Shown: positions 864 through 44,774 of the stretch, piece by piece | Position numbering within the stretch: the first letter of the stretch is position 1 | Layout: each line of letters opens with the position of its first letter | Source of the DNA: Azolla caroliniana | Taxonomy: Eukaryota > Plantae > Polypodiophyta | DNA length: 64,000 nt | Reading direction: 5' to 3' | NCBI GenBank assembly: GCA_043228905.1 | Contig: JBHGNT010000015.1 | Span: forward strand, 17,546,001-17,610,000 | The notes under the pieces: generated by a model | Databases searched by the model: none | Told to the model about the DNA's origin: nothing | What the model saw: only the letters and a program-made list of their open reading frames with translations | Translations under genes and position numbers: made by a program

Positions 864-1083
864 TCCACTCCCACCAAACCGCACGTCCACGGGTACGTGC
901 CAAGTTCGGAGAAGGGTAAGAGATTCCGGCCGGTGAGGAACCGGTCTTCCGTAATCCGCATTCCGGCTGCGAGTTGACCTTGCCAGTCCCAACCGTCGGC
1001 TCCGGTTCCTTCTCCGCGTTTGCCTCCCCGTAGGCTTGTTCGACCTGTCGATAGGCCATTCGCCAGGATCTCGTAGTGCGCGT

Positions 1084-1693
1084 TGCCGGGTTGTTTCTCT
1101 TTCGCGTATGAAATAAGGCGGGACCGCAGGGGCCCTGAACCGAGGAGTGTGAGAGACGAGAGGGAGAGAGAGTCGCGGAAAACACAGATGACAGAAACGA
1201 GACAATAACAATATAGATTACAGCTTGCGATGTTACAACCGGCAAGCCGATGACAAACTCTACACATACTCAACACGCATTGAAATACGTGTTGGAGCCT
1301 CTATCGGAAGCACGCGGCTTTCACACAGCAGAGGCAGCCCACTTAACCCAAATCCCTGCAACAATTGTGGTGGAGGAGAGAGCTCAGTTCCCAGTCCAAC
1401 AACACTTCGTCCTCTCTAAAAAAAACGCGCGATCCCCACTCATCCCTTTTTCTCTCCTTTTATAGCACAAGGAGAGAGAAACATTACAGACTGTTACATC
1501 ACTTTTATTCTCGGTACTAGAAAATAGAGATCCTCCTCGATTCCCTACCTAAATGCATTCATGCTACCTAGGATAATTATATCGCCTGCCTGTTCTTAAC
1601 TATGTGCATACATCAAAACAGGTGCCCGTTTGCAAGGGCCGGTTTACGCACACTATCCACTGATTCCACCTAGGGATGGTTTTCTCCGCGATA
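1084..1693 (-). repeat. Solo LTR (4-bp TSD family)
   Basis: Flanked by GCGT (1080-1083 and 1694-1697). Ends TATCGCGG (degenerate TGTCGCGG)...CCGGCA. The empty site is seen in the homologous arm near 14070 (GCACGCGTACT). U5 motif GGTTCAGGGCCCCTGCGGTCCCGCC. Confidence 0.75.
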
Positions 1694-2737
1694 GCGTGCT
1701 TCCCGTTTGCCCTTCTTTCGACCGCTTGCACACTTCTCATCCCTTCGGATACGCGGTGTCCTTCGTCCGAGGAGCACTCGTGATGGCCCGCTTGGCCTCC
1801 GTCGACCTTCGCGTCGTCCCGATTCTCGTTCCGCGCTGATCTCCACCGCCTTCGTCCCCTCGCCGCCACCTACCTTCTCCTTGGTCTTACGTTGCCACAA
1901 CAGCTGAACTACCAAGGTCTCCGGAACCAGTCTGAAGGATCCCTCTCCGGCCTTCTACGAGAGATAATCTAGACCGGCAACCCATCTTCGCGCCTGTATT
2001 CCTGCTCTGGCACCTCCGTGTGCCGCGCATCCCCTTCTCGTGTTGGCACCGCCTGTGCCGAACTCTAGTTACTTCCGATGCACGTGTTGTTGGCCCTCAC
2101 CTAGCCAGATCGTGCATCGCCGCTTCTCCGCATACCGGTGTCCTCCGTATACAAGGAACAGCCCGTAGTAGCCCGCTTGGCCACTTTCATCTTCCACTAC
2201 TGCCACCGGTTTGGAGCCTTCCACTTGGCGTCGTCCCCTCGCCCCCACCAGCTTGTTACCTCGGGTTTGGCCTGCCACACCAGTCATTGCCACTCCGACT
2301 GAGCCGCCCAGATCTCCGAAGCGGGTGTGGAGGATCCTTCTCTGGCCCTCGATCCTGTTTCTGGCTACCGACCCGTGCAGTCTATCCCGCACCCGATTTC
2401 CGACCCGGCACCATCATGTGTCGTCTTCCACTTTCCTTGTCCGGCAGCACCTGTGCCGAATGTCGTCTCGTACTCGTGCTTCTCTTTGGCCCTTGATGGC
2501 CACTCGCACGTCTCTTGCTCTGCTCCTTGCTTACCCCTCATCGGCTTCCCTCCGAAATCGTAACCGACTGGTAAGGGTTCGGCCTTTGTCAACTTTGGCC
2601 TCGCCGGCCCCCAATCCGCTCTTCCTGCATCACCAGTTCCATCTTTAGCCTTCTTCGTTCGGCACCATTTCTGCCGAACACCGTCCCGTACCCGTGCTTT
2701 TGCTTTGGCCCTCAATGGCCACGCGCACGTCTCCCAT

Positions 2738-3263
2738 TGTCGTGAAGATTTTTGTCCATAGGGGGAAACCGGGGTGGAAAGGGTAAGTCGGTGGTGTGCA
2801 ACATGTGCACACGTATACTAGGAAATGGTGTATAGAAATAAGAGGGGAAATTTTATCCCACATTGTAAGGTCCCTCCCTCCTTGGGCTATAAAAGGAAGG
2901 GATGGGTCACTTATGAAGGGGTTGCCTATTTTTGAGTGTGAGTGAGCTATACCACATAGTTCTAGAATTCCTCTTCTTCTCGTTTTAGGGTTAGGGTTTC
3001 TTATTCATCTTCTTCTTCTTAGTTGGTTAGGGTTTCCTTATATCGTTTGGTGTGGCCTATGCGGCCACCATTGTTGTAATCATTCACTTGTTTTTAATAT
3101 ATCTTGTTGTGGATCTTGCTTCCATCTATTTTGGTCTATGCTTATGTGCTACTCTCCATCTTCTCATCATGTGTTAAGCTTCCATTTCTCATCTCATTCT
3201 TCTTCCTCCACTCCCTCGTGGTCCCGCCTCGGATCCTACATGCGCTTGCGGAATATCGCGACA
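2738..3263 (+). repeat. 5' LTR
   Basis: TGTCGTGAAG...ATCGCGACA; near-identical to 8743-9281 apart from a few substitutions and a 13-bp deletion in U5. Confidence 0.92.
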
Positions 3264-3267
3264 TATT

Positions 3268-3285
3268 TGGTGAACCCGACGTGAA
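3268..3285 (+). promoter_or_regulatory. Primer binding site complementary to tRNA-Trp
   Basis: TGGTGAACCCGACGTGAA is the reverse complement of the plant cytosolic tRNA-Trp 3' end as I recall it (TTCACGTCGGGTTCACCA); 4 nt after the LTR. Confidence 0.85.
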
Positions 3286-4099
3286 GAGGCGGCAAGGGAG
3301 CATGGAGATGGAAGAAGACTTCGACTTCGAGGAGATGATGGCAAAGATCGTGATGGAAGCCGGACGGAAGATGGCGAAGCGAGATGCGACTCAACAAGCC
3401 GTCGAAAGGGTGGTCAATCGAGTCGGCCGGTTCAATGGGAATGAGGTCCCAAAATTTTTGGGAGCTTACAAGGCCGAGATGGCGAAAGGGGGCGTGGACG
3501 AGGTGATGCGACTAGGGTATTTTCCTCGAGTGGCGGCCGTATCGGTGCACAAGGAGGTCAAGGAGCTACGAGAAGCTCATGAGTCGTGGGTGTCCTTTGA
3601 GGGAGCCTTATTGGAAGCGTACGGGTATGCGAAACCGGACGAGCGAGGTCGGCATTGACGGGGACTGAACGCTCCTTATGCACAACGCTCGGCCACAACT
3701 GAGCTTAGAATGATACACTGAAAACGGGAAATAAAACGCGACACAAAGAAGAAGAATATACACAGGAGGTTTACGTGGAAAACCCCAAACTAGGGGAAAA
3801 ACCACGGCAGCCCAGAGGCTGCAAACTGTCACTATGTAAGAATGTACAACAGTGAGTTCACTGACGCAACGACCTCGTGCTCACAGATCTTCGCCACAAG
3901 CGGCGGTTACAACAAAGGCAACGACCTCTTTCTCTCTATCTCTCTCTGTACACAGTTACGCACTCTCTCTATTCTTTTTCAAACAAGAATTACAACACTC
4001 TAAAAGTTTGCCCAAAGTCATATTTATATTAAAATGACTTTTCGGCTATTTACAAATATATCCTCGATGGACTCTCAGAAACATATTTACCAATATGTC

Positions 4100-4484
4100 T
4101 CCTCATCCGGTTCATACCGGGTCTGCACCATCCGGCTCTCCGTAGCCGGGTACTCCTCATCCGGTTTATACCGGGTCTGCACCATCCAGCTCTCCGTAGC
4201 CGGGTACTCCTCATCCGGTTCATACCGGGTCTGCACCATCCGGCTCTCTGTAGCCAGGTACTCCACATCCGGTTCATACCGGGTCTGCACCATCCAGCTC
4301 TCCGTAGCCGGGTACTCCTCATCCGGTTCATACCGGATCTACACCATCCGGCTCTTCGTAGCCGGGTCCTCCTCATCCGGTTCATACCGGGTCTGTACCA
4401 TCCGGCTCTCGGTAGCCGGGTACTCCTCATCCGGTTCATACCGGGTCTGCACCATCCGGCTCTCGGTAGCTGGGTACTCCTCAT
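4100..4484. repeat. 54-bp CCGG-rich tandem repeat (7 full units) in LTR U3
   Basis: Unit TCCTCATCCGGTTCATACCGGGTCTGCACCATCCGGCTCTCCGTAGCCGGGTAC starts at 4100, 4154, 4208, 4262, 4316, 4370 and 4424. Confidence 0.95.
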
Positions 4485-4572
4485 ACAGTTTCGGCCTCGG
4501 CCGAGCTTGTTCATCAGCACTGTTCTTCTCCCTTTCCATCCGGAGGGACCTGTCTCCCAACAAACTCCCCCT

Positions 4573-5191
4573 TCACTCCGGCATGGGGTGTCTTACCAGT
4601 CCGATCCTCTTCCGGTACGCGCTCAGCTTGTCGGGTGTCAGCATTTTGGTCAGCATATCTGACCCGTTCCCGGCCGTGTGGATCTTCGTCAGTGCGAACT
4701 CTTGGTCATCTACTCTTTCCCGGATCCAGTGATACCTCCGTTGGATATGCTTCGTCCGGGAATGGTAGGCCGCATTCTTAGCAAGGTGGATGGCACTTTG
4801 ACTGTCGCAATAGAGTCGGTATTCCTCTTGCCGAATACCAAGCTCTCCGACGAAGTCTTTCATCCATAATATTTCCTTGCCGGCTTCCACAGCCGCCATG
4901 TACTCCGTCTCTGTGGTTGACAATGCAACCGTCTTCTGCAGCCTCGACTGCCACGAAACAGCGCCCCCTGCATATGTCATTACATACCCGGATGTAGACC
5001 GGCTGGTATCCACATCAGCCGACATGTCCGAATCGGTGAAACCGTCCAGTTGGGGTTTTCCGGAGCCGAATCGGAGACACATATTTGAAGTGCCCTTCAA
5101 ATACCGAAGTATCCATTTAACCGCGTTCCAGTGCTCCTTGCCAGGATTGCTCATGAACCGGCTCACCACTCCGACTGCGTATCTTATATCC
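4573..5191 (-). pseudogene. pol: Copia RT C-terminus and RNase H fragment
   Basis: DIRYAVGVVSRFMSNPGKEHWNAVKWILRYL, GFTDSD, YCDSQSAIHLAKN, RTKHIQRRYH motifs. Confidence 0.92.
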
Positions 5192-5889
5192 GCAATGTTC
5201 TTCTCCCTTTCCATCCGAAGGGACCTGTCTCCCAACAGGCATGAGTTGGACCGATGGGTGGCGTCGATGGAGCGCCATTGAAGCGCAATGGATGCATTCC
5301 GAGAGTTCGAGCGCCGTTTGTCTCAACTCTCGGAGCGAGATCGGAGATCGGTGGGGGCGGACAAAGTCCTCCTATTTTTGAAGACGATCCATCAAGAGGA
5401 GAGGATGGACATCTTATTCGAGCTTCAAGATGATTATGGAGCACATGGTCTCACCGAGGAGTGGTCCGAGGTGGAATGGGTGTGCCGGCAACATGATGCG
5501 AGGCGGTCGACCACAACACGACCCGCAAGTGGCGGAGAAGAGAGAGCGGCGAGTGATTACGCACTACCGCCGGAAGAGAGCTCAACGCAAAACAGTTCGG
5601 AGGAGCTCAACCTAGAAGTGCTAATACGGGAGGCATGCGAGCTTGTGAAGGCGAAAATCGAAGCCGAAGAAGGGCTTATTATGGAGTCGGGCCGGAGGAG
5701 ATTGGAGGATGCGGAGGAAGAAGCCTCCCTAAGCGTAGAAGACGGGGCGGGGCCTATACGGAGGCTAGGAGAGCGTACGATGGCGACATGGGAGAGGGTG
5801 TGGAGCAAGCGACCCTCTTGCCTTGTGGTGAAGGGATGGCCATGGAGGCCGGTAACTACGGATTCGGGACATGGCGGCCCAAAACATCG

Positions 5890-6700
5890 AGTGGCGAGGA
5901 GACAAGCGGCGGTGCCGTGACCTTACACACACCGGCCCTAGAGGCTCCGGCAGTCGGCCCGAGTGCCGGCATGAGACCTAGAGGGACGGGTGGTGGCGGC
6001 GGCAAGGTGGGCAACTAAGATGACGACATGGCAAAGACAACGACAAGCGTAATCGAGGCTTGCACGATCGGAGGTGGGGTAACCGCGGACAACGACGTCC
6101 GGACGGAAGCGGCTACGAACACAACGAGTGGGGGTGCCGGGTCCTTACCCACACCGGCCCTAGGGGCTCCGGCAGTCGGCCCGAGTGCCGGCGTGAGACC
6201 TAGAATGACGGGCGGTGGCGGCGGCAAGGCGGGCAACCGAGACGATGACATGGAAGAGACGGCGGCAAGCGTAATCGAGGCTTGCGCGATCGGAAGCGGG
6301 GTGGCCGCGGATAACGATGACCGGACGGAGGCGGCTACAGAGACAACGAGCGACAGTGCCGCGACCTTACACACACCAGCCCTTGAGGCTCCGACAGTCA
6401 GTCCAAGAGCCCACTTGAGACCTAGAGCGATGGGCGGTGGTGGTGTCAAGGCGGGCAACCGAGACGACGACGAGGACAAGGAGGTAGCAAGCATAACCGA
6501 GGCTTGTGTGACCGGGGATGAGATAGCCACGGACCACGACGTCCGAACAAAGGTGGCTACAAACATGACATCGTCGAGTGATGGTACTGAGACTTTTCCC
6601 ACACCTATTCTAGAGACTTCGGCGGTCGGCCCCGAGAGCCCACGTGAGACGAGAGACGGACGGTGGCGACGGCAAAGCGGACGATCGAAATGATGACGAG
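5890..6700 (+). repeat. ~222-bp tandem repeat (~3.5 units, 74-codon period) downstream of gag
   Basis: CCTTAC(A/C)CACACC core at 5920, 6142, 6364 and ~6592; translates to repeated L(H/P)TPALEAPAVGPSAG.RPR. Confidence 0.85.
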
Positions 6701-8742
6701 GAAGGTCATAGCGGGTGGAGGAGAGACCCCTCGACGCCGAGACCGGAGACTACGACGGTTGCGCCCGAGTGCGGACATAAGACCAAAGAGATGGGCGGTG
6801 GCCGTGAGGAGGCGTGGCCCGGAGCGGGCACATACGAAGAGGATGCGAGGCCCGGAACGGGCATACCGAAAGGCACCGAAGGAGAGGCCGGGAGCGGAAA
6901 CAAGGAGAGAGTCGGGAACCGACCCGAGCAGAGGACGAACCGGTCGGTAATCAGACACGACCGGAAGACGACGCGGAAGAAGATTGGAGCAAGGGCCGGT
7001 CAACCGGGCCCGAATGGAAGAAGAGCCGGCAAGGCCAGAATTGTTTTGCCGAACCCTTACCGGCCGGTTACGATCACGGAAGGGAGCCGATTGAACCGGA
7101 ACATGATCAATCGGGATCAAACCAAGCAAGGACCAAACCGGTATGATTGGAGATCGGGGAAGACGAGTCGCAACACATTGTGGGAGCCGGTGAGCGCGAG
7201 AAGGAGGCCAAGCGGGCATGATGACTACGGTTCCGTGGAAGACCGGAAATGAGCGGGACCCTCCCCACCTATTCTAGAGACTTTGACAGTTGCAGAGCAA
7301 CATAAGACCGGAGAGGCGGCGGGTGGCGGCGAGGAGTCGGAGACCGGAACGGACGAGGCTACCAGAACGGGTACCCGGTGCGTGAAGATGAACAAGCACG
7401 GCCAAGAGGGCCAAACGGAGACGGAAGGGTCTATGATGACTAAGGAAGAAGAGGCCGATGCGGAGGTCGGGACTACGGCCGGCGAAGGGCCAAGAAGCAA
7501 GCATGCAGCCGGAAGAGCGGCAACGAGTGACCGGCAACGGCAGACCGGTAGAGCCTCTGAGAGGCAAGCACGCTGCAAGAGACGGAGCGGTGAGTTGCCG
7601 AGATTGGCAGATGAACGACGAGAGCGGAGGATGGTGCGCGGAGAGAAAGAGCTATGCACCGGGGAGAGAAAAAGCGACGTCCCGGAGGACCTGTGGGGCC
7701 AAGTGGGCCAAGAGGATGGGAGTCGGGATGAAGCGGTAACGAGAGCCGCGAAGGACCCTGACACGAAGGTCGGGATGACGATACGCTCTACTACGAGAGA
7801 GCACAAAGAGCAAGGGAGAATCGAGGTGTGCGTAATGGGGTCACCTAAGGACCAAAGAATGAGTGTGCATTCGGAGGAGCTGCAACGAGTGATCAATGAT
7901 GACGGTCGGATGAAGCCTTCGAGAGGCAAGTGCGGGACGAAGGACGACGCAACGAGACACCAATATCGACGAAACGAGACGATCGCGGTCGGCATGAATG
8001 AAGGATTGTGTCTAGAGAAACGGAGGAGGTGCATGGAAAACAGAGGGTCACGCACCGTGAAGAGCAAACAAGGCATCCCAAAGGATGTGTGCGGCCGAGC
8101 GGGCCAGGCGGACCAAGAGGGTGTACCTTGGGGCGAAGCGGCAACTTCGGAGGTTGCGGGGGACACCGAAGATGAGAGCACCGACACGGATGTCGGGGAA
8201 GCAACGTACCTTTTCGAAAGGGTGTGCGGAGCGAAGCGGAATGCGAGACGTGTGATGTGGCCGTGTAAGGGCTGAGCGACAAGCACGAGGATGATTGACC
8301 ACGAAGTTTGGCGCGCGATAGTGCCGAGTCGAGGAAGCAGCCGAGGCAAGACAAGCGTGGATGAAGAGCAAATGGTGCGATATTCAGCAAACAATCGGGA
8401 AGAACGAGGATTCGTTCCAAGGTCGCACACGGAAAACGAACGAAGACAAAGAGAGGTTTGCGAAGACCGGGTTTGGCAGACCGGGCGGAGACAGTGGTTT
8501 GGCGAACTCTGTCGAGTATGGTGGATCGGATGGAGCCGACGGTTCGAGAGCATACGACAGATATGGCGGATCAGGAGGCTACGGTGGTCCATGTGGGACG
8601 GATGGGCTTGTTCGAAGTGGAAGACGAATGCGGGCAAAGCTAACAAAGACGCTAAGGACTCGGTTGACCGCCATGGCCAAAAATCTCACCTCTTTCCCCT
8701 TCTTGGCACATACCGGTGGATGTGCGGTTTGGTGGGGGCGGA

Positions 8743-9281
8743 TGTCGTGAAGATTTTCGTCCATAGGGGGAAACCGGGGTGAAAAGGGCAAGTCGGTGGC
8801 GTGCAACATGTGCACACGTATACTAGGAAATGGTGTATAGAAATAAGAGGGGAAATTTTATCCCACATTGTAAGGTCCCTCCCTCCTTGGGCTATAAAAG
8901 GAAGGGATGGGTCACTTATGAAGGGGTTGCCTATTTTTGAGTGTGAGTGATCTATACCACATAGTTCTAGAATTCCTATTCTTATCGTTTTAGGGTTAGG
9001 GTTTCTTATTCATCTTCTTCTTCTTAGTCGGTTAGGGTTTCCTTATATCGTTTGGTGTGGCCTATGCGGCCACCATTGTTGTAATCATTCGCTTGTTTTT
9101 AATATATCTTGTTGTGGATCTTGCTTCCATCTATTTTGGTCTATGCTTATGTGCTACTCTCCATCTTCTCATCATGTGTTAAGCTTCCATTTCTCATCTC
9201 ATTCTTCTTCCTCCACTCCCTAGTCCAAGACCCTTGTGGTCCTGCCTCGGATCCTACACGTGCTCGCGGAATATCGCTACA
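8743..9281 (+). repeat. 3' LTR
   Basis: Direct repeat of 2738-3263, preceded by a PPT. Confidence 0.92.
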
Positions 9282-11370: not shown

Positions 11371-14300
11371 AGTAAGGAGTCGACCACCGACCACGGAGAG
11401 CAGGTGGCTATGGACAAGGGCGTAAAACAGATGGGCAATTCTTCGCGTCTTCCCACACTTGCTCCCGAAACGGTGGTAGTCGGGCCCGAGTGGCCACGTG
11501 AGTTCTTAGAAGAGGAAGGCGGCGGCGTGAGACCAAGATTCACCGGCGAGACGATACGGGGAAGGAGCGGACGAAAGCCCTCGAACCCTACTCCGGGGAA
11601 CTCGGCATTCGGGCCCTTATGCCCATGTGAGATCGAGGAGATGGATGACGGTATCGAGGAGTCCTGGCATGATGCCAGCGAAGAAGGATGGGAGTTGGCC
11701 CGCAAGAAGCTCAACGAAGAGACCAAGAAACGACCCGACCGGGGGCTGAACACGCGAAACTCCGATTCGGTTGGAGCGCGTTCCAGTCGTGGATTGTTCC
11801 ATTGGGGCCAGAATCGGCATGAGGGTGCCGATACGGAAGAGGGTGCGGAACGAGCCGCCCTCTTTTACATGGGGAGAAAGACCGATCGGGCGAAGGTTGG
11901 GAATTAGGAAGAAGATGATCAAGGGTATGGAACGAGTCCGGTAGGATCGGCATCGGAGCCAAAACTCTAGACATTGGAGAATCAGCCCAGGCGGGGCTTG
12001 ATTGATCACAGAGCAGATGCTATCCACCAATACCACTAAAAGGCGCGGTGGCCGGGACGAGTCGCCGAGAGACGTTGCGAAATCGGTTACCCACATCTTG
12101 TCCGGAGACTACGACAGTTCGGCCGTCGTTGCAACGTGAGACCGAAAGAGATGGAAGGTAGAGGCAAGAACGCCGAAAGGAGAGCAACGACGAGTACGGG
12201 AGAAGTACAGGGAATGAAGAGGAGAACGAAGACCGGTCCTACGGATATCCTCCCACTGATCCGGCTGTCGGCCCTAGTGCCGGCGTGAGTCCTATAGGAG
12301 ATTGTCGGTGACGACAAGAGAACAGGACTCGGCAATCCAGAGAATGACGGACGGACCCGGACGAGAACCGGGCGGAGCGGACTTCCGATTCGGAAGAGGG
12401 GAGAGAGCAGGCCTACGAAGAGGCCGGGAAGATCGGTACGTCGGTACCACATGGGAGGGTGTGGAGCGAGCCACCCTCTCGACTTGCGGACGAAGACGAC
12501 CCGGGATAAGGGTCTGGGATACAACGAGCCCAAGGAGGATCCTTCACACTGGTTCCAGAGACTCCGGCGGTCGGCCCGAGAGCCGGCGTGAGACCTAGAG
12601 TGACGATCGGTGGCGGCGAGGGGACGAAGGCAAAGAACTATGGACGGGCGGTCTACGGAGATCCTCACACCGATCCGGCTGTCGACCCGAGTGTCAGCGT
12701 GAGTCCTATAGGAGAGATTGGTGGCGGTAGGTGAACGTGATGAGACGCCGTGCGGTGCTACAACAACCTTACACACACCGGTTCTAGAGACTCCGGCAGC
12801 CGGCAACAAGAGCTGGCGTGAGACCTAGAGGGAAGAACGGTGGTGGTGGCAAGGCGGGCAAACCGAGGTCCCACGAAGATCCTCACACTGATCCGGCGGT
12901 CGGCCCGAGAGCCGATGTGAGTCCTATAGAAAAGGACGATGGTGGCAGGTGATAGTGATCAGATGACGGAAAGTAGAGCAGGAAGGTATGAGGCCGGCGA
13001 GGCGGCTATGAACCGAATCGGACCTACCGGCAAGATCATGACTATAAATAAGTCCAGTCCTACGAGATCCCCATACCAGACCGGAGACTCTAGCAGTTCG
13101 GCCAGCGTGGCAACGTGAGACCATGAGAGAAGGCTGGTGATGGCGGGAAGCGGGACCCGACTACACGGGAGACACGAGGGGAGTCTGGGTGGGACTCAAA
13201 CGAAAGACACCCGTATTTCGGCAAGCAACGAAACGAAGACCGGTCCTATGGGATCTTCACACCAATCCGGAGACTTCGGTTGCTCGGCCAACGTGGCAAT
13301 GTAAGACTGAGAGAGAAGGATGGTGGCGTCAAGGAACGGGACCCGACATCGACAATAGCCGGCAAGACCGAAGCTATCTAAGTGTAAAACCCTTACCAGC
13401 CGGTTACGGTTTCCGAGGGAGCCAGTAAGGGCAAGTACGGGCTGTGTGCCAAGCCGGGAAGGCCACACCCAGAGTTGAAGAAGAATCGTGCAAATGGCCA
13501 TCAAGGGCCGAATCGGAGCACGACTAAAGGACAGCACACATGCGGTGGTGCCGGGAACGCGGAAAGGGGTGCACGAAGAATTGCACAGGTCGGAGACCGA
13601 AAATGATATATGGGCCGGGGAAGGATCCTCCACACCCGCTTTCGAGATCTCGGAGGTTCGGTCAGAGTAGCAACGATTGGCGTGGCAAGCCGAGCCTGAG
13701 ATGACAAGCTGGTGGGGGCGAGGGGACGACGACGAGTGAAAGGCTTCAACCCGGCGGCAGCAACGCAAGACGGAAGAGGGCCAAGCAGGCTACTACGAGT
13801 ATTCCTCGGACGCTGAGGACACCCACGGGCGAAGGGGACGCGGTGGTGCCAGCACTTCGCATGCACCGACTCTAGTGACTCCGGCATCCGGCCCGAGAGC
13901 CGTGTGAGACCGTGAGTGACAGACGGTAGCAGCAACAAAGACGGCGACCAACACAAAGTGGCAACGAACTAAGGCCAAGCGGGCCATTACGGGTGCCCCT
14001 CGAGCGGAGGACCCCGGGCTTACGGCGGATAGCGGAGCGTGCATTCGGCCAAGTGGAGGGCCAGCAACGAAGCACGCGTACTATGGGACCGCGGTGGATG
14101 ACCTGTCGACGGGTCGAACAAGCCTACAAGGAGGCAAGCGCGAGGAAGAACCGGGGCCGACGGTTCAAACCCGGCCGCAATCGATGCCCGCAAGCCGAGA
14201 TGCGAACGCGAAAGACCGGTTTCTCATTGGCCGGAATCCTTCTCCCTTCTCCGGAATTGGCACGTACCGGTGGACGTGCGGTTTGGTGAGGGCGGATGTC

Positions 14301-14972
14301 GTGAAGTTTCCGGCACATAGTGAGAAACAGGGAGATATTGGAGGAATCGGCGAGGTGCAACGTGTGCACCCATCCTTGTAAATTTGTATTGGGAATAGGG
14401 GCGCCGAACGGCAATAATTACGGGACAAAGAATCCCATGTAAGTCGGGATTTATCCCACATTGTAATGCATCCCTCTCCTTGTTTTATAAAAGGAAGGGA
14501 TGGTCCCTTGTAGAAGGGTTGCCCATTTTGAGTCATAAGGGTATACCGTTTTGTGTTTCTTTCTAGGGTTAGCTACATTCTTTCTTTTCTTCTTCTTTTC
14601 TTTTCTGCTCCTTCTCGAGGAGTCGAGCAGTAGCTATGACAGCAAGCTGTTAGGTTAGTTTCTCTTCTTCTGTGCGTAGCCGGCTCGGGCCATGGTTGTA
14701 TCTCTCCCCCCTTTTCGGAGGTTTGCTTCTGCTCGGTTCTATACAAGACCCTGCTCGGCGCGACAACCCGTGAGCTCCCCGACCGGCGGCTTGGCAACCG
14801 ACTGTGGCTATAACCTACCTTGGTCCAGCTCGAAGCCGGATTTGTATTATTTCCCTTGTAATATACACATTTGCGTCTGTTTGTGCATATCGGTGTACTT
14901 GGTGGTGTCGGAAGCACAACCCCTTTGCTTCCTGTGCAGAGGAGTCAGTGTTGCGTGAACGCTCTCCCTCTC

Positions 14973-15018
<46 letters not shown>

Positions 15019-25115: not shown

Positions 25116-25163
25116 AGTATAGGGAAAAGGGTAGGCTGGAGGAAAGGAAAAATTGGTTCAAAC

Positions 25164-33000: not shown

Positions 33001-33421
33001 TCGGATCCCTTAAGCTTGGATCATTCGTGACTTCCTTCATCTTTTGCCAGCTATCTTCCGGTAGCGGAACCACAACTGGCTTGATCTTCTTATCCACCTT
33101 TTTATATTTTGTGTTGACTTCAGCTTCCTCCATCAAGATGCCACAATAGTATTCATCGATGATAGCGTACATGTTGACGGAGTTAACCGAAATCACACGT
33201 TGGTCGTGAAGATAGCTCAAGTCCACGACGTCCTCGATTTCGCCGATGGTGTCGTTAAATGAGGCTTCTTCCATAATATGAGTCATGAACTCTTCTTCTT
33301 CTATTATGTTTTCTTCTTTCAGCATCTTCTCGAAATCTTGTATCCGACGCTTGTCCTTCTTGTCGGGTAGTACTAGTTTACATGCACCACTAGGTGTGAC
33401 ACATGTTGCTTCTCCTCGCAA
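30012..33421 (-). pseudogene. pol: Gypsy pol RT-RH-INT (frameshifted)
   Basis: PHVPWNLKP, NRWFTVPKKNG, PFLDD, IETDCLP, HRG...CETCQ, TTAYNPEANGKIE, KFARRWFRPY. Confidence 0.92.
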
Positions 33422-35394
33422 TCCACGTGCTCTATTTTCTTGTGGGGACTTGTGATTGCTCGGACTATTTGTCCCCCATGCTTCAATAGTCAGCTCTAAA
33501 AATCCTAGGATTCGCCTCCAAGACTATCACGATTCCTTTCATGATTGGCTCGCACCGTTAGGAATTGGACCGATCTTTGGTTGTCAAGACTCTTTATTCG
33601 TGCGAAGGCTGCTCCATTGTCGAACACTTTGGTTTCCATCCGAGATGATGTGATATACGGTTGTCCTAAGATGACAGGATGCGACGCCGATTCTTGCACG
33701 AAGAAGTGTTGATCCATCTCCACATCCCCGATCGTGACTTTAACATTGGGACAAGCTCCGTACAAGTCCTCCGTAGTCTTTGTTGCCACGCGAATCTTCC
33801 ATCGTTGATTTGTATTGATTGGCCATCTTCTTTTTTTGTAGAAGTCGGTTGACATGAGGTTGATCTCCGAATCGTGGTCGATCAAGGCTACCACGGTCTC
33901 TTTCTTCTCCCCGATCTTCACCGGTGTCTCCGTTGTCGCTCATGCCCAATGAGGTCGAGTATAGTGGCTATCGACCATTTTTTCATCAACTTCGTCTCTT
34001 TCCATCGTTATGGTATTTTCTTTCACTTTTAGTGACTTCTCTTCTTCTTCATCTGATTGTTGCCTTTTTCGCTTTACAAGGTCCACAATCGTGTCGTGGA
34101 ACTCCTTCATAATGCCGAGTAATTCCCTCAAGGACAAAGTCACGTGGTTGTCAAGAACGCGTTCCTCGACAATCTTCTTCAGGTCTTTTGTCTGCTCTAT
34201 GTCCAACCTTAGCTTATAGGTAGGCATAGTCCTTGTCTTTCGAGCAGGGTCTTTGACACCAATCTTCACGGCCGAACCGTTTCTTCGACTCGTTTGCTCG
34301 ACTCCGCTTTTTGGCTTGCGTCTCCTTCCTCCATTTGCAAGGGTCGACTCGTCTCTGCATCTTCTTTCTTTTTCGTGTTCCTTGTTTCATGTCTCTTTGA
34401 TGGGCCTTGCTCTTCTATTCTTTTTGTCTTTTCTTCGACGAACACCTCGTGGTTGTTGCATATCACTTCCACGAGTATGGTGTTGTCATCCACCGGATCC
34501 GACCACCCGGTTATGCTTTGCACGCTTCGGTCCGCAAGCTCTACCTCGTTCGATGTGACCTTCCCCATCTTCTCATACTCGAGAACGAAAGAACAAAACT
34601 TGCCTCCCACTTTCGTAGCTTCATTTCTCTCTTTCCCGACTCTTATTCCGGTCGTTGCAGAATAGTGCATCGCATCCAGATGAGTCGCCTCAACATCTCC
34701 CATAGATTTCTTCATTCCTCCTCTTCCGAAATTTACCCACAGGGGTCTTCGAGTTTCAGTCGAGTAGATCATGTTGTCGTCTATGTATACGATATTTTGT
34801 CGGATCGCCTCTCGAAGGATCGCGCAATCCCTTCTCATGTGGTCCATGCTATCGCACCACACGCATCTAAAGGGTTCTTTCCCTTTGGGGCCCCGATGAT
34901 TCGTGTTGGCTAGTGTGACCATCTCGAACTTCTTTGCCAGTTCTTCGATGATGTCATCACCAATCTTCTTTTCTTCCACGTTACTTTGGTTTGGCGGTTC
35001 AGCTACTTTCGGCGGTCTTGCTTTCTCCGTGACAATCGATCCCGTCAAGTCGGTGTCATCAACCCATTGGCGATGCTTGTCGAGCCTATTACACGCCCAC
35101 TTCACCGCGATCCAGTCCGCTACAAGCCCATTTGCTTGGGTATCGTCTTCAAGAAGAGTCCCCAATTCTCGTCTATCCTTCATGTCTACAGCTTTCAAGA
35201 AGTACAAAGTCTTGTCCTCTTCAAGCAGCACTTGGTCCGTGTTGGGGAGACGACGAAACATTTGGTCGAATTCGTCGTACACCCTCGAAGCGCTCATCTT
35301 CTTATTTTCAAGAACAGTACTAAAGTAGAGAGAGAATTAGTACTAAAGAAGAGAAGCACTATTAGTACTAAGAGGACGGGACTATGTAAGATTC

Positions 35395-35434
<40 letters not shown>

Positions 35435-35700
35435 GATGATAACAGCTATATATTATGTGAAGGATAAGTACAAAGTGGCTAAGAGGCTTAAGACTGGCGT
35501 TGAACCAATTTGGTTCAACATAATGCCTAGTGCCTTCTTTTATAGTGTTCTCAGGAGTAATCCTTAAGCTTCTAGAATGTTCTAGAGAAATCTGGAATAA
35601 AGGATAAATGAAAATAATATCCTATGAATTACAATAGATGGTGTGATGGTTAAGAGCTCGACCCATATACCATAAGGTCATGGGTTCAAGTCTTGCCATA

Positions 35701-38700
35701 TCATGACACTATCCCTCCCTTAAGAAGACGAGTGGAACGAGTCGACGCTGATTGAGGATCAGGTTTGTCGGGATATTGTCGGTGAAAATCAACAAGAAGA
35801 TCTTGAGCAGCATTGGCGACATACTCGACGGGCTCCCAAGTACGTTCGCTCGGACTATAGCTGAGCCAATAGACCAAATAATAAAGTTTGTTGTGAACAA
35901 ATTTGGAGTCAAGGATGGCAGCAACTTCATACTCCGGGCCGGTGTCAAACTCAAGGAGGGGCAGCGGTGGTGTAACACGATCGGGAATAGTGTTTGCTTG
36001 ATAAGGTTCAAGAAGAGAACTATGGAAGACCGGATGTATCCGAAGATGCAGAGGAAGATCAAGGTGAAACGTGACATCATTAACCTTACCGGTAATACGG
36101 AAAGGACCGAGTCGGCGATAATCCAACTTGTCGCACGGTCGAGTAGTCTTGATGTAAGAGCCAAACTCGATCTCCAATGGCAAAAGAGGAGGGCAGCCGA
36201 TGACGATCCGCGTAAGTCTTTTGTGTCTGTTGAGCATGACAAAGATGAATAGAGAGATCCGTCTGGATCTTGCGTAGTCTCTCCAAATGATCCTCGGCAC
36301 GAGGATTGGTAGGTAGCTCCAGGGTGTCAATCACCGACCAGCGAGGATGAGAACCGGTATAAGCGTAGAATGGGGAGACTCGAGTCGAGGAGTGAACAAC
36401 ATTATTATACGCAAACTCCACAAAGTGAAGAATCTCAGCCCAATCATCCTGTTTATAACTCAGGAAACACCAGAGATATTCCTCCAGCGTTTGGTTTGTT
36501 CGTTCCGCCTACCCATCGGTCTGAGGATGGTAGCCGGAGGAGAGGTTGCAAGAGACCTTGAGCATCTTGAAGAGATGCTGCCAAAATTTGGAGACGAATT
36601 GTGGTCCTCGATCACTAATGATACTGTCTGGGAGGCCATGATGCCGAAATACCTCACACATGACACGGGCGGCGGTTTCCTCGCTAGTGATGGCCTTAGT
36701 ACACGGCACAAAATGTGCCATCTTCAAACCCCTTCGAGACCGGCAGATCTATGATAAAGTCAAGACAAAAAGACTACCACGGATTACTTGGAATCGGTAA
36801 GGGTTCCAACAAGCCATATGGATGGTGTCGTAGCATCTTTGCTCAGCAACAAGCATCACAGGTCCGAACGTAGTCATAGACAAAACGTCGCATATGGGGC
36901 CACCAAAAGATCGTTGAACTATATCCAACGTCTTAGTGCTACCGAAATGTCCCGCCATATGGGTGTCATGACAATTTTGGACGATTTGAAGGCGACAGGA
37001 GCAATCGGGGACATATACAAGCTTTTTAAAGAATAGCAAACCATCATGATATTCGAATTGTCGGTAGTCCATACCTGGTTGTTGAGACTGGGAACAGGAT
37101 TCCCGAGAGGTATCAATATGCGCCAGAATGTCTTGAGCAAAATTGTTCGTCTTCAAGTTCGCACGTGTGGTGTCGGTAATCTGGGAATCCATTGGGGTGT
37201 GAAAAATCCATGTTGTGTGCAATCGTGTTGGTTCCAACATGACTTGCTTTTGATTATCGAATGTTGGATCACCAGAACGAGGTGCAAGATATGAACGCCG
37301 TGATAGTACATCTGCCTTTCCTTGCTGCTTCCTCGGTCGATATGCGATTTTGAAATCAAAACGTGTGAGGAATTGAGCCCACCTAGCTTGCCATCGATTT
37401 AGCACATGAGCATTCTAGAAATAAGAAAGATTCTTGTGATCATTGAAGACGATGACCTGATGTGGAGAGCCCTCCAAAAAATGCCACCATTGCACAAATG
37501 AATCCACGATGGCCAATAACTCCTTGTCATGTATTTCGTAGTTGATTTCCACAGCATCGAATTTGCGCGAATGGAAAGCCATAGGATGTAACTCTTCTTT
37601 ATCTCCTTGTTGAGAAAAGATGCTACCAAGGGCGAAATCTGATGCGTCGGCCTCCATGATGAATGGTTTGTTTGTATCCTCATGAGCTAGAATAGGTGAT
37701 GATGTAAAGGCTTTCTTAAGATGCCGAAAAGCCATGTCCGCTTCATTGGACCAAAGAAATGCTTGTCCCTTCTTCGTAAGTTGTGTGAGAGGTAAAATAA
37801 TCTTCGAGTAATCCTGTATAAACTTGCGGTAGAAGTTAGCAAAACCTAGAAAACATTGTACATCTCGTACTGACCGTGGAATTTGCCACTCTAGCACAGT
37901 TTGGACTTTAGTTACATCCATGGAGATGCCCTTTGATGAGATAATGTAGCCTAGAAATTCCACTTGCTTGCAGTCAAAGCTACATTTTTCTAGCTTGGCA
38001 TAAAGACCATTCTCACGAAGTCGGTTTAGTACTAATAGTACATGAGAATCATGCTCTTCCTGGGTCTTCGAATAAATCAAGAGATCATCCAAATAGATCA
38101 TCAAACAGATATCCAAGAGGTCTCTGAATATATCATTTGCCTTGTGTTGGAAGACTGTGGGTGCATTGGTTAAACCGAACGGCATAACCATATATTCGAA
38201 ATGCCCATACCGCGTGCGAAAGGCGGTCTTCCATTCATCTCCCAGTCGGATCCGCACGAGGTTATACTCTCCTCATAGATTGATTTTTGTAAAAAACTTG
38301 GCACCATTAACTCGCTCTAAAAGACTTGATATAAGAGGAAGTGCATACCTATTCCGGATGGTGACCTTATTTAAGCCGCGGTAATCAACGACGAGACGAA
38401 GTGAGCCATCTTTCTTCTTGACAAAGAAGATAGGTGCTCCGGCCGGAGATTTCGAATGACAAATAAACCCGCTTGCCAAGTTCTCCTCTATGTAGGCTCG
38501 AAGGACTTCTAACTCGGTGGGTGAAAAGTTGTAGATTGGTTCCCATGGTGGCTCTACTCTTGGTTGTAAATCGATGGGACAATCGTAGGGACGATGATGA
38601 GGAAGAGTACCAGCTTTTACCTTGTCAAATACGTCGGCATAAGGATGATATTTCACCACAAGTTGCACTAAGGATTCCTCCTTAATATCGCTGGAAGGAT

Positions 38701-39249
38701 GTACTGATATGGCGAATAAGAACATTGCCTCCTTGTGTCCTTTTCGCGTAGTTGATGTAGTGAAATGGTCGAAACTCGATGAGTAAATTCTGGGGGTTGT
38801 CGATATCGAACTTCTCTTGTTCTCCAATCTATGTCTGGATTATGTAGTTCAAACCAAGGTAATCCCAAGACAATGGGATGCTCCGAACTACTAATTATAT
38901 TAAATGATACTGCACACACAAAACTACCTAGGACAACTTGAATGGGTTCTGACTCTTCTACAATATTCCCGGAAGCAATGGGACGACCATCAATGACTAC
39001 TATAGATGCGGGGCAAGGAAGTTTTCTTAAGGATATCTGAGAAGCTTGGGCAAAATTTCGATCCATGAAACAGGAATTGGCTCCGGAATCTAAAAGTGCT
39101 AGGACTTGTATTAGGGGAGTACTTTTAGTACTAACCATGACTTGGGCTAGGAACACATTGCTAGCTTGCTTGGAGGGAATGGAACCACTAATGGGTTGTA
39201 CAGATCTAGGGTTGTCCAACCAAACGACTCCTATTTTGGCTGGACTCAA
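35701..39249 (-). pseudogene. pol: Tcn1-like pol with C-terminal chromodomain
   Basis: ALLDSGAN, IYLDD, EADASD, GYHPQTDG, EYEVAAILDS...YYLVYW...ERTWEP (~35760-35935). Confidence 0.92.
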
Positions 39250-39495
39250 TCGTTTAACTCTTCATCTAATTGACTAAGGATTTCAAATTTTTTTGAGATA
39301 CTTGGGCTATTAGTACTATTAAGACTATCAGACACTCTATTAGTACTATTAATACTATCATATACTCCTAAGGGAAGAATTGACTCGGGTTTAGTACAGG
39401 CTAAGATTTGATTTACCTATCTTCTTGGCCTATGAGGACAATTGATTGCAATATGCCCTGGTCCACCGCAATAAAGACATAATCGATTTGCACGT

Positions 39496-40229
39496 TGTCA
39501 TGAAGAATTTCGGCTAGAGGCGGAAATCGGGAAATGTTGGCTACATCGGTGGGGTGCAGCATGTGCGCTCGCCCTTGTACATTTAGTGTGAATAACGAGG
39601 GCGCCTTTATGGCGCCGAACAGTAGTTAAGTCGGGGTTATCCCACATTGTAACGCATCCCTCTCCTTGTTCTATAAAAGGAAGGGAGCGCCCCTTTACGA
39701 AGGGGTTGCCCATTTTGTATTAGTAGGGTATATCGTTAGATGAAGAGACGTTCTCTCTTCCTCTTTCTCTCTTGTTTTAGGGTTTCTTCTTCTCCTCCTC
39801 CTCCTCTGCTTCTTCTTCGTCACTCTATGAGTCTAGCTTGATACCTACAAGTTCTGTATCTGCCCTGTCTCCTGTGCAAGACCCCGCTCGGCGCGACGAG
39901 CCCGTGAGCTCCCCGACCGGCGGCGTGGCAGTAGAGGATTGTTGTATCTTGCTTCTTGTAAATATACCTATGGAAGATTCTGCGTTTTTGGTGTCTGTGT
40001 GGGTGTTTTAGTGTTTCCTTACTTCTGTTTCTGTACATAAGCGTGAGTGGGGTCGACACTGTGTGTGCGTGTGTCGGCCAGGGGTGCGCGCGTGTTCTTC
40101 TCTCCCTCCTTCTCGGTTGTTTCCGGCGTCCAGGAAATGGTGAATCACGACTTCCTACGCTCCGTCACTCCCTAGTCCAAGAACCCCGTGGTCCCGCCCT
40201 TCTACACGCACGCGCGAAACTTCACGACA
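39496..40229 (+). repeat. Solo LTR (4-bp TSD family) inserted in Tcn1-like gag
   Basis: TGTCATGAAG...CTTCACGACA; TSD ACGT (39492-39495, 40230-40233); empty site GGCACGTCGTCG at ~24201. Confidence 0.92.
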
Positions 40230-41293
40230 ACGTCGTCGTTGTTTTTCTTCTTCCGATAACGAGCCACGTCGACGCATGGTGTCGATCTCCATCGGTGTCA
40301 GAGTATTTTCTTGAGGTACGTCACGTGCAAACGGTTTAGCCGCGACTGAGGCATAACTGGGCTCCGGCCTAGAGCGTAGTATTTGTAATTGATGTTCCCA
40401 ACGCCGTTCAAAAAGGCGGTTGTCGCATCGGACCGCTCGACTAATTGCCTCCGTAAGAGACTTTGGTTCTTCGGGGAAGGTTAAAAGTAAATCTTTGACA
40501 TCGTTTCGCAGGCCGTAGCGAAACTGCTCCATGAGTGCCTGATCATCCCAGGGGATATCTGAGGCGAGTAGACGAAAATCTGCCGCGTAGGCAAAGGCTG
40601 GACGATCGCCTTGACGCAATCGTTGGATCTTGTTGATCGTTGTCCTGTCGGTGTCTCCAAAATAGTCTTTAAACTTACTAATAAAATCTTCAAAGTTATT
40701 AAGCAAGGGCGATTGTTTTTCTAGAAGCGAAGCGAACCATGCTAAGGCTAAGCCGCTAAGCAACGTGCCTATTAGGCCGACTCAGGATGCATCAGTGGGG
40801 TATCAGGAAGGATGCATTTGGATGACTAATTGTACCTAATTAAGGAATCCCCGGAATTGCGATTGCGTTCCATCAAATTTCACAGGAAGTCCAATCTTCG
40901 GCTCCTTATGAAATCCTTGGGGACTTGATCCCTGTTGTTGCAATGCTGCTTCGAGTTGTTGTGCCTGTAACGCTAACTCCCCATGTTGTTACTGCGTTTG
41001 TTGTTTTTCTAGAGCGATTTGTTGCAGATCCCCTATCAGTCGTTGGTTTTCTTGTTCCAAGGCAACAAATTTTTCTTTTAGGAACTGTAGCTCAGAGAAA
41101 ACGGATTGATATTCTTGGGCGCTAATAGTAGCCATAGTATAGGGAAAAGGGTAGGAGGATGAGGGAGAACGACAAGTAGGCTTGAGGAGAAAATTGGTTC
41201 CAACTCTCAAGAATAGTACTAAAGCAGAGAGAGAATTAGTACTAAAGAAGAGAAGTACTATTAGTACTAAGAGGACGGGACTGCGTAAGATTC

Positions 41294-41330
<37 letters not shown>

Positions 41331-42036
41331 GGAGGATGAGAGAGAGAGAAGGAGATGATGATAACAGTTATATATTATGTGAAGGATAAGTACAAAGTGG
41401 TTAAGAGGCTTAAGACTGGCGTTGAACCAATTTGGTTTAACATAATGCCTAGTGCCTTCTTTTATAATGTTCTCAGGAGTAATCCTTAAGCTTCTAGAAT
41501 GTTCTAGAGAAATCTGGAATATACATTAATTTCTTATAATAAAACATAAATTAAAATAATATTTTACAAATTACAATAGATGGTCATGGGTTCGAGTTTT
41601 GCCATATCATGACACTTATTCTTCTTTTCTATCCACTTCATCAAGGCATGTCGAGTCATCCTCGACAAATCTTCCGTCGCGAACTCCGCTAATATCGCTT
41701 TCTCGAAGTCCGACCACGTTGTCTTCCCTTCTTGAAGCTCGATGACACGCCTTTGGATGTTGTTGGTGACAACTCTCTTGAAGCTTGTGATTTGACGTGC
41801 TTCAAACACGTCCCGTTGATTCATCTCCCTTTTGTATGCATCAAGGAACTTCGTAATGTTCCTTCCGTCGAATTGACCCTCGAGCTCCACGACGGCCTTC
41901 TCCACGCTCACATCATTGTCTCGAGATCTCATCATTTGTTCAACGATCAGCATCATCCTTTCGAAGTCTCCCGCTTGATTGCTTGAGGACGGCATCTCCA
42001 AGTGTTGGTCTCGACTTGATCCTTCCTACCGCCTCG

Positions 42037-42054
42037 TTCACGTCGAGTTCACCA
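42037..42054 (-). promoter_or_regulatory. tRNA-Trp primer binding site
   Basis: TGGTGAACTCGACGTGAA, 8 nt from the LTR end. Confidence 0.8.
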
Positions 42055-42062
42055 CTTGATTA

Positions 42063-43172
42063 TGTCGTGAAGATCCGACACTATGTGCGGATCGTGAGGT
42101 GGAACCGCCGGGGTTCTGGACCGGAAGGACTCGAAGCACGCACTAGCTTTAGCGAGAAATGATTTAAGATGGATTGAGGGAGAGAGATTGAGATAAGACT
42201 AATATGGCGAGAGATAGAGAGTGAGAGAGATAAGATCGAACTTTTAACTTTAGATTTGAGAGACAAGATATATAATCAAATGGAGAACGGATTTTTCTTC
42301 TTCTTAAATTCTTGAAAAAAAACATAACATACTTTTGATCTTTTTCATCCATCCTTTTATAGATACTCCCATGCATATGATGCATGCGGGTACAAGACAT
42401 GCATGGAATGCATGTGATGCATGTGATGCATGTTTGCCATTTGGCACTCATGCATCACATGTCACTCAATCAAGCTCTAATATGAGAATTTACATGTAAA
42501 AGTATAATGATAGGAAAAACATTTCTAAGGCAAAGTCATAGCCTAGTGGTAAGTCTATAGACTCTCAATGTGGAGGTATAAGGATCAAGTTTTCTCCTTC
42601 ACTCTATTTTTGAATATACACGCACACACGCACACACATATATATATGTTTTTTATTATTTATGTATTTTTACAAGGCATTCCTCCGTCCTGTCGTTGTC
42701 TTGTCGGCTCCGTCGGTCGCGGTCGCCGGGTGATGTCGGATGCCGGATCCCGTCGGTCGCCGCCGTCGTCAGATTCGTCCAAAATACATAGTTATATGCA
42801 TTTGGCTACATCCATTCGTTAAGTCATACAACTTAACCTTCCTATGCTCCACACATAAACACAAAGATAATAGCTTTTGTTCTATCTTATATATGGTGGG
42901 TTCCTTATTTGTCCGTTCTATGTGGGATATCACATATTTTTCTCTTCTTCTTTGCAAACTTCGTACCCACATAACTTGACACTTAGATGTCTGTTTCTTA
43001 CATAGTAAAGCACATTCAGAACCTCTTCAAGACTCCATCTTTTTGTACCAAGATATTAAACTTATTTAAAATAGTATCTTTACTATTATTGTTTATATTT
43101 CGTGAGAAGAACCATGCTCGATTTCATATGTTTCTTACAAGTTTCACACTATCGCTGAAAATCTTCACGACA
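42063..43172 (-). repeat. 5' LTR
   Basis: Direct repeat of 28829-29939, followed by the PBS. Confidence 0.95.
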
Positions 43173-44774
43173 TCGTCATCCGACTTGACAACCAACTGCT
43201 CCTCGGTCGGTTCGAATGGAGCCGAATCGGACTCATACCATGATGCCGATTTGTCAAAAACTACGTCTCGACTCACCCGAACCACTCGGGTCAAAGAGTT
43301 GAAGCACTTGTATCCCTTTTTCTTAGATGAGTATCCTTCGAGGATACATTTCTCTAACTTCGCGTTGAGCTTTTGTCATTGTTCGTTCAAGATGAGCACA
43401 TTCGCAATGCTTCCGAACACTTTGAGGTGAGAAAGGATCGGCTTCCTTCCAACAAAGGTGTCGTATGGAGTTAGCTCATGTACTGCATTAGTGTGCACCG
43501 ATTCATGAGATAGACTATTGTGGATGCCGCTTCGGCCCAATAGAAGTTCGGCATGTGCTTCTCATGCATCATGGCACACGCTACCTCGAGTATGTTCCGA
43601 TTCTTCCTTTTGGCTACCCCATTTTGTTGGGGCGTGTGCCGGCACAAAAATTCTCTCCAAATGCCTTCACCTTGAAGGTAGGAGATGAATTCGTTGGAGA
43701 AGTACTCATTGCCTTCATCCAATCGTAGGCACTGAGTGTGCCAACTGGTTTCTTTTTCAACCTAGCTCTTGAGCTTTTGGAATTGTGAGAGCACTTCACT
43801 CTTCTACTTTATCGGGAAGATCCACGTGTAGCAGGAGTATTCGTTGATGAAGGTGACGTAGTACCGGCATCCTCCAATGGTCGGTCCCCATACATCCGAG
43901 TGGATTACGTCAAGGAGTCCTTTGCTTATGTAGCTCTCCTTTCGAAATGGGGGTCGGTGTTGTTTTCCGAGTTGGCATGCTTCGCATACTTGGTCAACTC
44001 GTTTCGACTCAAAATTTGGGAGTCTGATAGCTACTCCCTTTGACTGCATAGCTCGGAGCCATTGGAGGTTGATGTGGCCGATTCTCTTGTGCCACAACTC
44101 GATGTTCATCTCGGTTTTGAGACCTTTGGCATACATGGCCGATTTTACCTTGTCCCAATCGAGAATAAACATTCGGCCTTCTCTCCGTCGTCTAGCTATG
44201 AGTCGGCTATTCTTCTTTATAAAGCATCCTTCGTTGTTGAAACGAACTTGCATTCCTTGCTTCACGATTTGGCCTACTGAGACCAAATTCTTTGTTATTG
44301 TAGGACCTGCAAGACATTCTTGATGCAATTGTGTTTTCCATCGTTGCCGAATGGAACGTTGATGATGTGCCGAATGAGATGTGTGGTGTCATCTCCCGTC
44401 TCTATGTAGTCGGGTTTATCCGGCATTCTTAAGTCATGAAACCACTCTTGGTGTGGCATCATATGATGTGAGGCGCCGGAGTAAACGAACCACACGTCTT
44501 CCTAGTTGGAGGTGCTTGTGGAGTCGGAGGCCGTTATAGAGTTCACTCTATGTCTCATTACGAATAGACCACCGTAGTCTTCAAAGTCAAAGTTGGTAGC
44601 GTAGTTTGTGAGTTGCCGGCTTGTGGAAGCCGACTCTTGTCTTTTCTTTCAACACTCCTCTTCACGATGGCTGATCTTCCCACAATAGTTGCAACTAAGC
44701 GGCATCATTTGCCGACCTTGTTTGACATGGAAGCTCCCCCTTTTTTCGAAGGTTCCTAAATGGTTTCCGACCAT
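43173..44774 (-). pseudogene. pol: Copia B zinc knuckle, protease, GAG-pre-integrase and integrase core
   Basis: CNYCGK..H, WFVYSGASHHM, ELWHKRIGH, CEACQLGKQ, IHSDVWGP, TPQQNGVA. Confidence 0.88.

What the first reader, a model, noticed from the sequence alone, without database searches (positions are those of the whole stretch)
1080..43176. Trp-primed Gypsy family inserts with 4-bp TSDs centred on a CG dinucleotide
Seen: GCGT (1084-1693), CCAT/CCGT (2738-9281), ACGT (27438-28160), TCGT (28829-43172), ACGT (39496-40229) and a one-sided TCGT flank (after 15136). In element orientation these read ACGC, CCGT, ACGT, ACGA, ACGT and TCGT, so all fit N-CG-N. The 4-bp length is supported by empty paralogous sites within the window (~24201, ~52775, ~14070). 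Copia and Tcn1-like elements here make ordinary 5-bp TSDs. Inference: this chromodomain-less integrase prefers CpG, possibly methylated CpG, which would steer it into TE nests.
Basis: partly seen in the sequence, partly recalled or inferred. Interest (0 to 1): 0.75.

Follow-up and report, generated by a model that had tools for sequence, protein, structure and literature searches.

The report
Phygy-type retrotransposon inserting at CG sites
A very abundant jumping-gene family in this genome inserts almost only at four-base sites centred on CG (mostly ACGT), a habit already published for the moss 'Phygy' family to which it likely belongs; whether the CG must be methylated is untested.

Summary
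All six window flanks are as described. In young copies 62 of 62 host junctions have CG at the centre of a 4-bp TSD, and 24 of 26 LTR pairs have an exact 4-bp duplication (none 5 or 6). Control Tcn1-like and Copia junctions show CG in 2 of 31 and 2 of 33. Genome-wide, 6,008 of about 8,246 non-PPT LTR starts follow CG-N. The PBS matches the genome's tRNA-Trp; Pol has no chromodomain and no extra RNase H. This set of traits (4-bp NCGN, tRNA-Trp, no extra domain) is the published description of the Phygy clade (REXdb 2019), so the core finding is known; membership by tree could not be tested. Additions here: the motif is VCGB, not NCGN (ACGT 1,781 versus TCGA 18). Gag-only non-autonomous partners share it. 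Gag-protease and Pol overlap at a conserved GGATTTT-TAG. The methyl-CpG idea is neither needed nor excluded: TE DNA is about 3-fold richer in CG, which explains most of the nesting.

The parts
1084..1693 (-). Solo LTR, 610 bp, decayed ends; 4-bp TSD GCGT at 1080-1083 and 1694-1697 (ACGC in element sense)
   Evidence: family assignment by ends and TSD only
2738..9281 (+). Element A: non-autonomous Trp-primed element; LTRs 2738-3263 and 8743-9281 (94.8% alike); TSD CCAT/CCGT (one CG>CA decay)
   Evidence: no pol by tblastn
3268..3284 (+). Primer-binding site complementary to the 3' end of tRNA-Trp(CCA), 4 nt after the LTR
3302..3658 (+). Gag N-terminal piece of element A, 43% identical over 104 aa to the Gag of an autonomous copy
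14297..15136 (+). 3' LTR preceded by the family PPT; right flank TCGT (15137-15140); 5' partner not found
27438..28160 (+). Solo LTR, 723 bp; TSD ACGT/ACGT; three other solos of this type have GCGT, ACGT, ACGT
28829..43172 (-). Element B: autonomous-type element with premature stops; LTRs 28829-29939 and 42063-43172 (97.9%); TSD TCGT/TCGT (ACGA in element sense)
42038..42054 (-). tRNA-Trp PBS of element B, 8 nt from the LTR end
30012..33523 (-). RT-RNase H-integrase region of element B (broken by stops); SH3-like end, no chromodomain hit
33499..33505 (-). GGATTTT just before the Gag-protease stop: candidate -1 frameshift site into Pol (inferred)
35313..41616 (-). Tcn1-like element nested in B, 5-bp TSD CTTAT (control; left end approximate)
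39496..40229 (+). Solo LTR, 734 bp, inside the Tcn1-like element; TSD ACGT/ACGT
24204..24207 (+). Empty paralogous site (single ACGT) for the 39496 insertion
52779..52782 (+). Empty paralogous site (single ATGT) for the 27438 insertion
14074..14077 (-). Empty paralogous site (single GCGT on the minus strand) for the 1084 insertion
44802..50453 (+). Copia element with 5-bp TSD AACGT (control)

Best explanation
These are copies of a tRNA-Trp-primed, chromodomain-less Ty3/Gypsy family, likely a member of the known Phygy clade, that insert with a 4-bp duplication centred on CG, which its integrase likely selects from the DNA sequence itself without needing methylation. Shown: 4-bp stagger, near-absolute central CG, V-CG-B spectrum led by ACGT, the same rule in pol-less Gag-only partners. 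Inferred: like foamy virus integrase (4-bp TSD, consensus VYRB), the enzyme would kink the target at the central pyrimidine-purine step; clade-specific residues (Arg-Gly-Glu after the second catalytic Asp, the Glu aligning to PFV Ala188, and a conserved loop in the SH3-like end) would narrow YR to CG. Because TE DNA here has about three times the CG density of CpG-poor DNA, a plain CG preference plus selection against genic hits would fill TE nests. Later C-to-T decay turns older TSDs into CA or TG.
For: TSD: 62 of 62; 24 of 26 exact 4 bp; 6,008 CG and 7,109 YR of about 8,246. Spectrum: ACGT 61 and TCGA 0 of 188; 1,781 versus 18 of 6,008 genome-wide, against 5.3% and 10.8% of CG sites in 40 evenly placed tiles. 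PBS: 6 of 6 loci with the complementary sequence are tRNA-Trp genes. Domains: one RNase H, no chromodomain. Published Phygy traits: 4 bp 100% (NCGN), tRNA-Trp 81%, no extra domain. Nearest solved integrases are PFV and Ty3; PFV consensus VYRB and role of Ala188/Arg329 (PMC4422553); Arg182 92% and Glu184 92% conserved in 62 homologues. Flank CG density equals that of random CG sites. Tiles range from about 1.1 to 7.9 CG per 100 bp.
Against: No labelled Phygy sequence was in hand, so clade membership rests on traits, not on a tree (name only Riccia, Calypogeia, Adiantum, Ceratopteris, Olpidium). Autonomous copies are 6.9-8.1 kb, at or below the published range 7.7-10.0 kb. Young insertions lie in repeats more often (28 of 31 left, 29 of 31 right flanks) than the CG-matched null (69-74%; P 0.001-0.02, tile clustering ignored). 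The two insertions I had scored as non-repeat turned out to sit in multi-copy DNA, so no insertion in single-copy, presumably unmethylated DNA is shown. The residue roles come from alignment only.
Confidence: 0.7

Rival explanations
1. The integrase prefers 5-methyl-CG, so DNA methylation itself steers a chromodomain-less element into silent TE nests.
For: 57 of 62 young flanks are repeats, above the CG-matched null; mean flank CG density is slightly above the matched null (P=0.01); two apparent exceptions are multi-copy too. CG>CA/TG decay shows CG methylation acts at these sites, at least after insertion. A retroviral precedent exists (Kitamura 1992: title seen in the reference list of PMC5408687; content recalled, paper not held).
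Against: Median flank CG density is not above the null (P=0.28). Tcn1-like (81%) and Copia (73%) flanks are also above random positions (53%); the family versus these controls gives P=0.29 and 0.05. Young TSDs show no tolerance of TG or CA (0 of 62), which a methyl-reading pocket might accept (inference). No methyl-binding domain in Pol.
Confidence: 0.18
2. CG is chosen only for bendability (a flexible YR step), with no base-specific reading.
For: Retroviral integrases with 4-bp TSDs favour a central YR and avoid T first and A last (PMC4422553), as seen here.
Against: TA, CA and TG are also YR steps and are together more common, yet 62 of 62 young junctions are CG.
Confidence: 0.07
3. The family is TatI or another Trp-primed 4-bp lineage rather than Phygy.
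For: TatI also has 4-bp TSDs and tRNA-Trp; no tree against REXdb was possible.
Against: TatI is defined by an additional RNase H (100%), absent here; the NCGN preference is reported only for Phygy; Selgy uses tRNA-Ala.
Confidence: 0.07

Closest known systems
Phygy clade, non-chromovirus Ty3/Gypsy of Physcomitrium patens (REXdb; PMC6317226)
   Same: 4-bp TSD with central CG, tRNA-Trp PBS, no chromodomain, no additional RNase H, coding region filling the internal part; often nested in Tcn1 (PMC6911290), as at 39496.
   Different: Somewhat shorter here (6.9-8.1 kb versus 7.7-10.0 kb). The motif resolves to VCGB with ACGT on top. ORF layout (listed as ND in REXdb) is Gag-PR then RT-RH-INT in the -1 frame. 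Gag-only non-autonomous partners are present.
Prototype foamy virus integrase (PDB 3OYM, 3L2Q, 4E7K)
   Same: Best sequence and fold match; 4-bp TSD; consensus VYRB with T/A avoided at the edges.
   Different: PFV preference is weak and accepts any YR; here CG is near-absolute, and the residue at PFV Ala188 is Glu.
Drosophila ZAM-subgroup errantiviruses (PMC5408687)
   Same: Sequence-specific Gypsy integration at a palindromic CG-containing target (CGCG).
   Different: Animal lineage, different target; the review calls sequence specificity exclusive to errantiviruses and their derivatives.
TatI clade (REXdb)
   Same: 4-bp TSD, tRNA-Trp.
   Different: Carries an additional RNase H; no CG preference reported.

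Membership tests
Phygy | 4-bp TSD | tested here: met
   24 of 26 young pairs exact 4 bp, none 5 or 6; three empty sites in the window and an empty copy in public contigs
Phygy | NCGN insertion preference | tested here: met
   62 of 62 young junctions; 188 of 230 overall; 6,008 genome-wide
Phygy | tRNA-Trp PBS | tested here: met
Phygy | No chromodomain and no additional RNase H | tested here: met
   Pfam on an uninterrupted 1,167-aa Pol ORF at E up to 1 and on homologues; the model ends in an SH3-like sheet and a disordered tail
Phygy | Short element, polyprotein spanning the internal part, 7.7-10.0 kb | tested here: inconclusive
   Two ORFs fill the 5.7-kb internal part, but total size is 6.9-8.1 kb
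Phygy | Monophyly with P. patens Phygy in an RT/RH/INT tree | not testable with these tools
   REXdb FASTA and element table too large to read; no named Physcomitrium hit. Own RT tree: one clade (100/100) with liverwort and fern homologues, apart from the Tcn1-like copies
TatI | Additional archaeal-type RNase H | tested here: not met
Selgy | tRNA-Ala PBS, about 5 kb | tested here: not met
   PBS is tRNA-Trp
Tcn1 chromovirus | Chromodomain, 5-bp TSD, self-priming | tested here: not met
   RT only about 25% identical to the Tcn1-like copies

The most novel reading that the evidence does not exclude
The integrase of this clade reads 5-methyl-CG directly, giving plants a chromodomain-independent route by which an LTR retrotransposon homes to methylated, silent TE DNA and builds nests.
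Probability: 0.18. Interest if true: 0.75.

Novelty: new member of a known kind. Interest (0 to 1): 0.25.

Why it matters
The CG rule is already in the REXdb paper, as one sentence and one table cell. This genome holds thousands of copies, many with identical LTRs, so the open follow-up becomes testable: is the strongest target-sequence preference among plant LTR retrotransposons due to base reading or to methyl-CG reading, and which integrase residues do it? A plain CG preference would itself keep a chromodomain-less element away from CpG-poor DNA.

Tried and rejected
Single-sequence fold of the integrase was useless (pLDDT 36); the 62-row fold worked (79.5). No named Physcomitrium homologue came from three protein searches or the cluster look-up. 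Earlier scan findings were not available. Laying public contigs on two full insertions gave no orthologous empty allele in single-copy DNA; both flanks were multi-copy. The count '10 of 173' came from too loose a pattern and is discarded. Recurrent target sites (five pairs at matching positions of host repeats; one pair checked has LTRs 70-75% alike and flanks 90% alike) were considered as hotspots; abundant host repeats with few ACGT sites can explain them, so no claim is made. A G-box (CACGTG) target was considered: C just outside the TSD is only 40% against 23%. Paper searches for a test of methylation dependence found none: 12 listed; 13 listed; 0; 0; one search was uninformative. The library lacks most subscription journals.

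Full report
Observation. Three paralogous empty sites in the window each hold a single copy of the 4-mer. Window controls have 5-bp TSDs, and 14 of 15 hand-picked control pairs or solos from genome searches have exact 5-bp TSDs.

Scale. The window lies on contig C15 of a 523-Mb genome. The LTR start TGTCGTGAAGA occurs 11,809 times (reversed control 79). Of these, 3,563 follow the PPT-type GRA. Of the remaining 8,246 or so, 6,008 (73%) follow CG-N and 7,109 (86%) follow YR-N; the remainder includes decayed PPT ends and reverse-read LTR ends. CG occupies 3.6% of positions in 40 evenly placed 10-kb tiles. In 800 kb of fetched TE-dense blocks (chosen for pattern density, not for TSD), the window and 59 loci, 188 of 230 host junctions have central CG, 18 CA, 13 TG and 11 other. 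In the top hits of two young subfamilies, 62 of 62 junctions have CG; 24 of 26 LTR pairs (97.5-100% alike) have an exact 4-bp TSD and none 5 or 6; one has a single mismatch and one is a likely tandem mis-pair. Tcn1-like and Copia junctions have CG at that offset in 2 of 31 and 2 of 33. Public contigs from three runs read through a multi-copy empty site with one ACGG.

The motif is VCGB. Among 188 CG junctions, ACGT 61, ACGG/CCGT 43, ACGC/GCGT 31, CCGG 18, TCGA 0. Genome-wide ACGT 1,781 and TCGA 18 of 6,008, although TCGA is twice as common as ACGT among CG sites (10.8% versus 5.3%). Flanking bias is weak: C at -1 40% versus 23%, A at -2 and -3 36-38% versus 25%.

Anatomy. The PBS is complementary to genomic tRNA-Trp(CCA): 6 of 6 loci checked of 62 matches. 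Autonomous copies are 6.9-8.1 kb with a Gag-protease ORF of about 710 aa and an RT-RH-INT ORF of about 1,167 aa in the -1 frame. GGATTTTTAG sits at the overlap in 29 of 36 family junctions listed (the pattern required a near match), a candidate frameshift site (inferred). Pfam finds one RNase H, an SH3-like end and no chromodomain. Element A and relatives have no pol but a Gag N-terminus (39-43% identity) and share PBS, PPT and TSD rule, so they are likely mobilised in trans. Named homologues come from liverworts and ferns, plus one fungal-labelled record; the RT tree puts them in one clade apart from the Tcn1-like copies. The host is therefore likely a non-seed land plant (inference).

Comparison with what is known. 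[quoted passage not shown] PMC6911290 (passages) reports 4-bp TSDs and nesting of Phygy in Tcn1. PMC12885004 (passages) reports Phygy in a liverwort. PMC7466625 (passages) gave nothing on TSDs. TatI shares TSD length and primer but needs an extra RNase H, which is absent. Membership by phylogeny could not be tested.

Mechanism. The nearest solved integrases by sequence and fold are PFV and Ty3. PMC4422553 (passages) gives the PFV consensus as VYRB with a kinked central YR, T and A avoided at the edges, and base contacts by Ala188 and Arg329. The element's VCGB is that pattern with YR narrowed to CG. In the alignment, Glu184 faces PFV Ala188 (PFV numbering recalled); Arg182 and Glu184 are each 92% conserved in 62 homologues, and the SH3 loop has conserved Gln354, His355 and Lys360. 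That these residues read CG is inference. Drosophila ZAM-group elements give a Gypsy precedent for a CG-containing target (PMC5408687, passages).

Methylation. Tiles vary widely: CpG-poor ones have o/e 0.3-0.6, TE-like ones about 1.0, with CG counts of 105 to 789 per 10 kb. Young flanks have a median 5.33 CG per 100 bp, equal to random CG sites and above random positions (3.17). Against a 4-mer-matched tile bootstrap, P=0.28 for the median and 0.01 for the mean. Repeat flanks: family 92%, Tcn1-like 81%, Copia 73%, CG-matched null 69-74%, random positions 53%; family versus controls P=0.29 and 0.05. The repeat library was partial and biased to family-rich regions, and both 'non-repeat' insertions tested were multi-copy. 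CG density and selection thus explain most of the nesting; methyl-CG reading is neither needed nor excluded. CG>CA/TG changes appear only in older pairs, showing decay after insertion. Searches found no published test.

Verdict. A real and strong feature, but a likely new member of the described Phygy clade, with a sharper motif and an open, testable question about methylation. Interest 0.25.

Noticed in passing
window 33499-33505 (-); L102:3270: Conserved GGATTTT-TAG where Gag-protease ends and RT-RH-INT begins in the -1 frame, with a predicted stem downstream (-22.6 kcal/mol over 90 nt, no shuffle control). A frameshift after the protease would be unusual; REXdb lists Phygy ORF layout as ND.
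   Followed up: partly
window 2738-9281; L137-L138 (C1 about 6,268,650-6,274,330); L064:2995-7529: Pol-less partner family with a Gag N-terminus fused to a long low-complexity ORF (up to 1,428 aa unbroken); some copies have 100% identical LTRs, so recently mobile. Resembles TR-GAG-type elements (name recalled).
   Followed up: partly
window 3264-3267 and 42055-42062: Long spacer between LTR end and PBS: 4 nt in 51 of 76, 3 nt in 11, 8 nt in 8 (the subfamily of element B), implying unusually long 3' processing or a shifted priming end.
   Followed up: partly
G000 C8:17,796,000-17,824,000; C16:4,989,000-5,106,000; C5:10,105,000-10,112,000: Clusters and tandem arrays (about 1.2-kb spacing on C8) of the tRNA-Trp 3' sequence; 62 matches genome-wide.
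   Followed up: no
L189/L190 versus L215/L216; four more pairs: Independent insertions at the same ACGT-type site of a host repeat on different chromosomes.
   Followed up: partly
window 28829-29939 and 42063-43172: The LTR of element B ends in a perfect 12-bp inverted repeat of its start.
   Followed up: no
L141-L180: CpG-poor tiles (o/e 0.3-0.6, GC 35-40%) alternate with TE-like tiles (o/e about 1.0, GC 45-55%): CpG depletion is in the non-TE part, opposite to many plants.
   Followed up: partly
P0121: An RT homologue labelled Olpidium bornovanus (fungus, MAG) falls in the clade at 41% identity: contamination or a plant-fungus link.
   Followed up: no
L017, L200, L237: Tandem elements sharing an internal LTR (PPT before, PBS or a second element after).
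   Followed up: no
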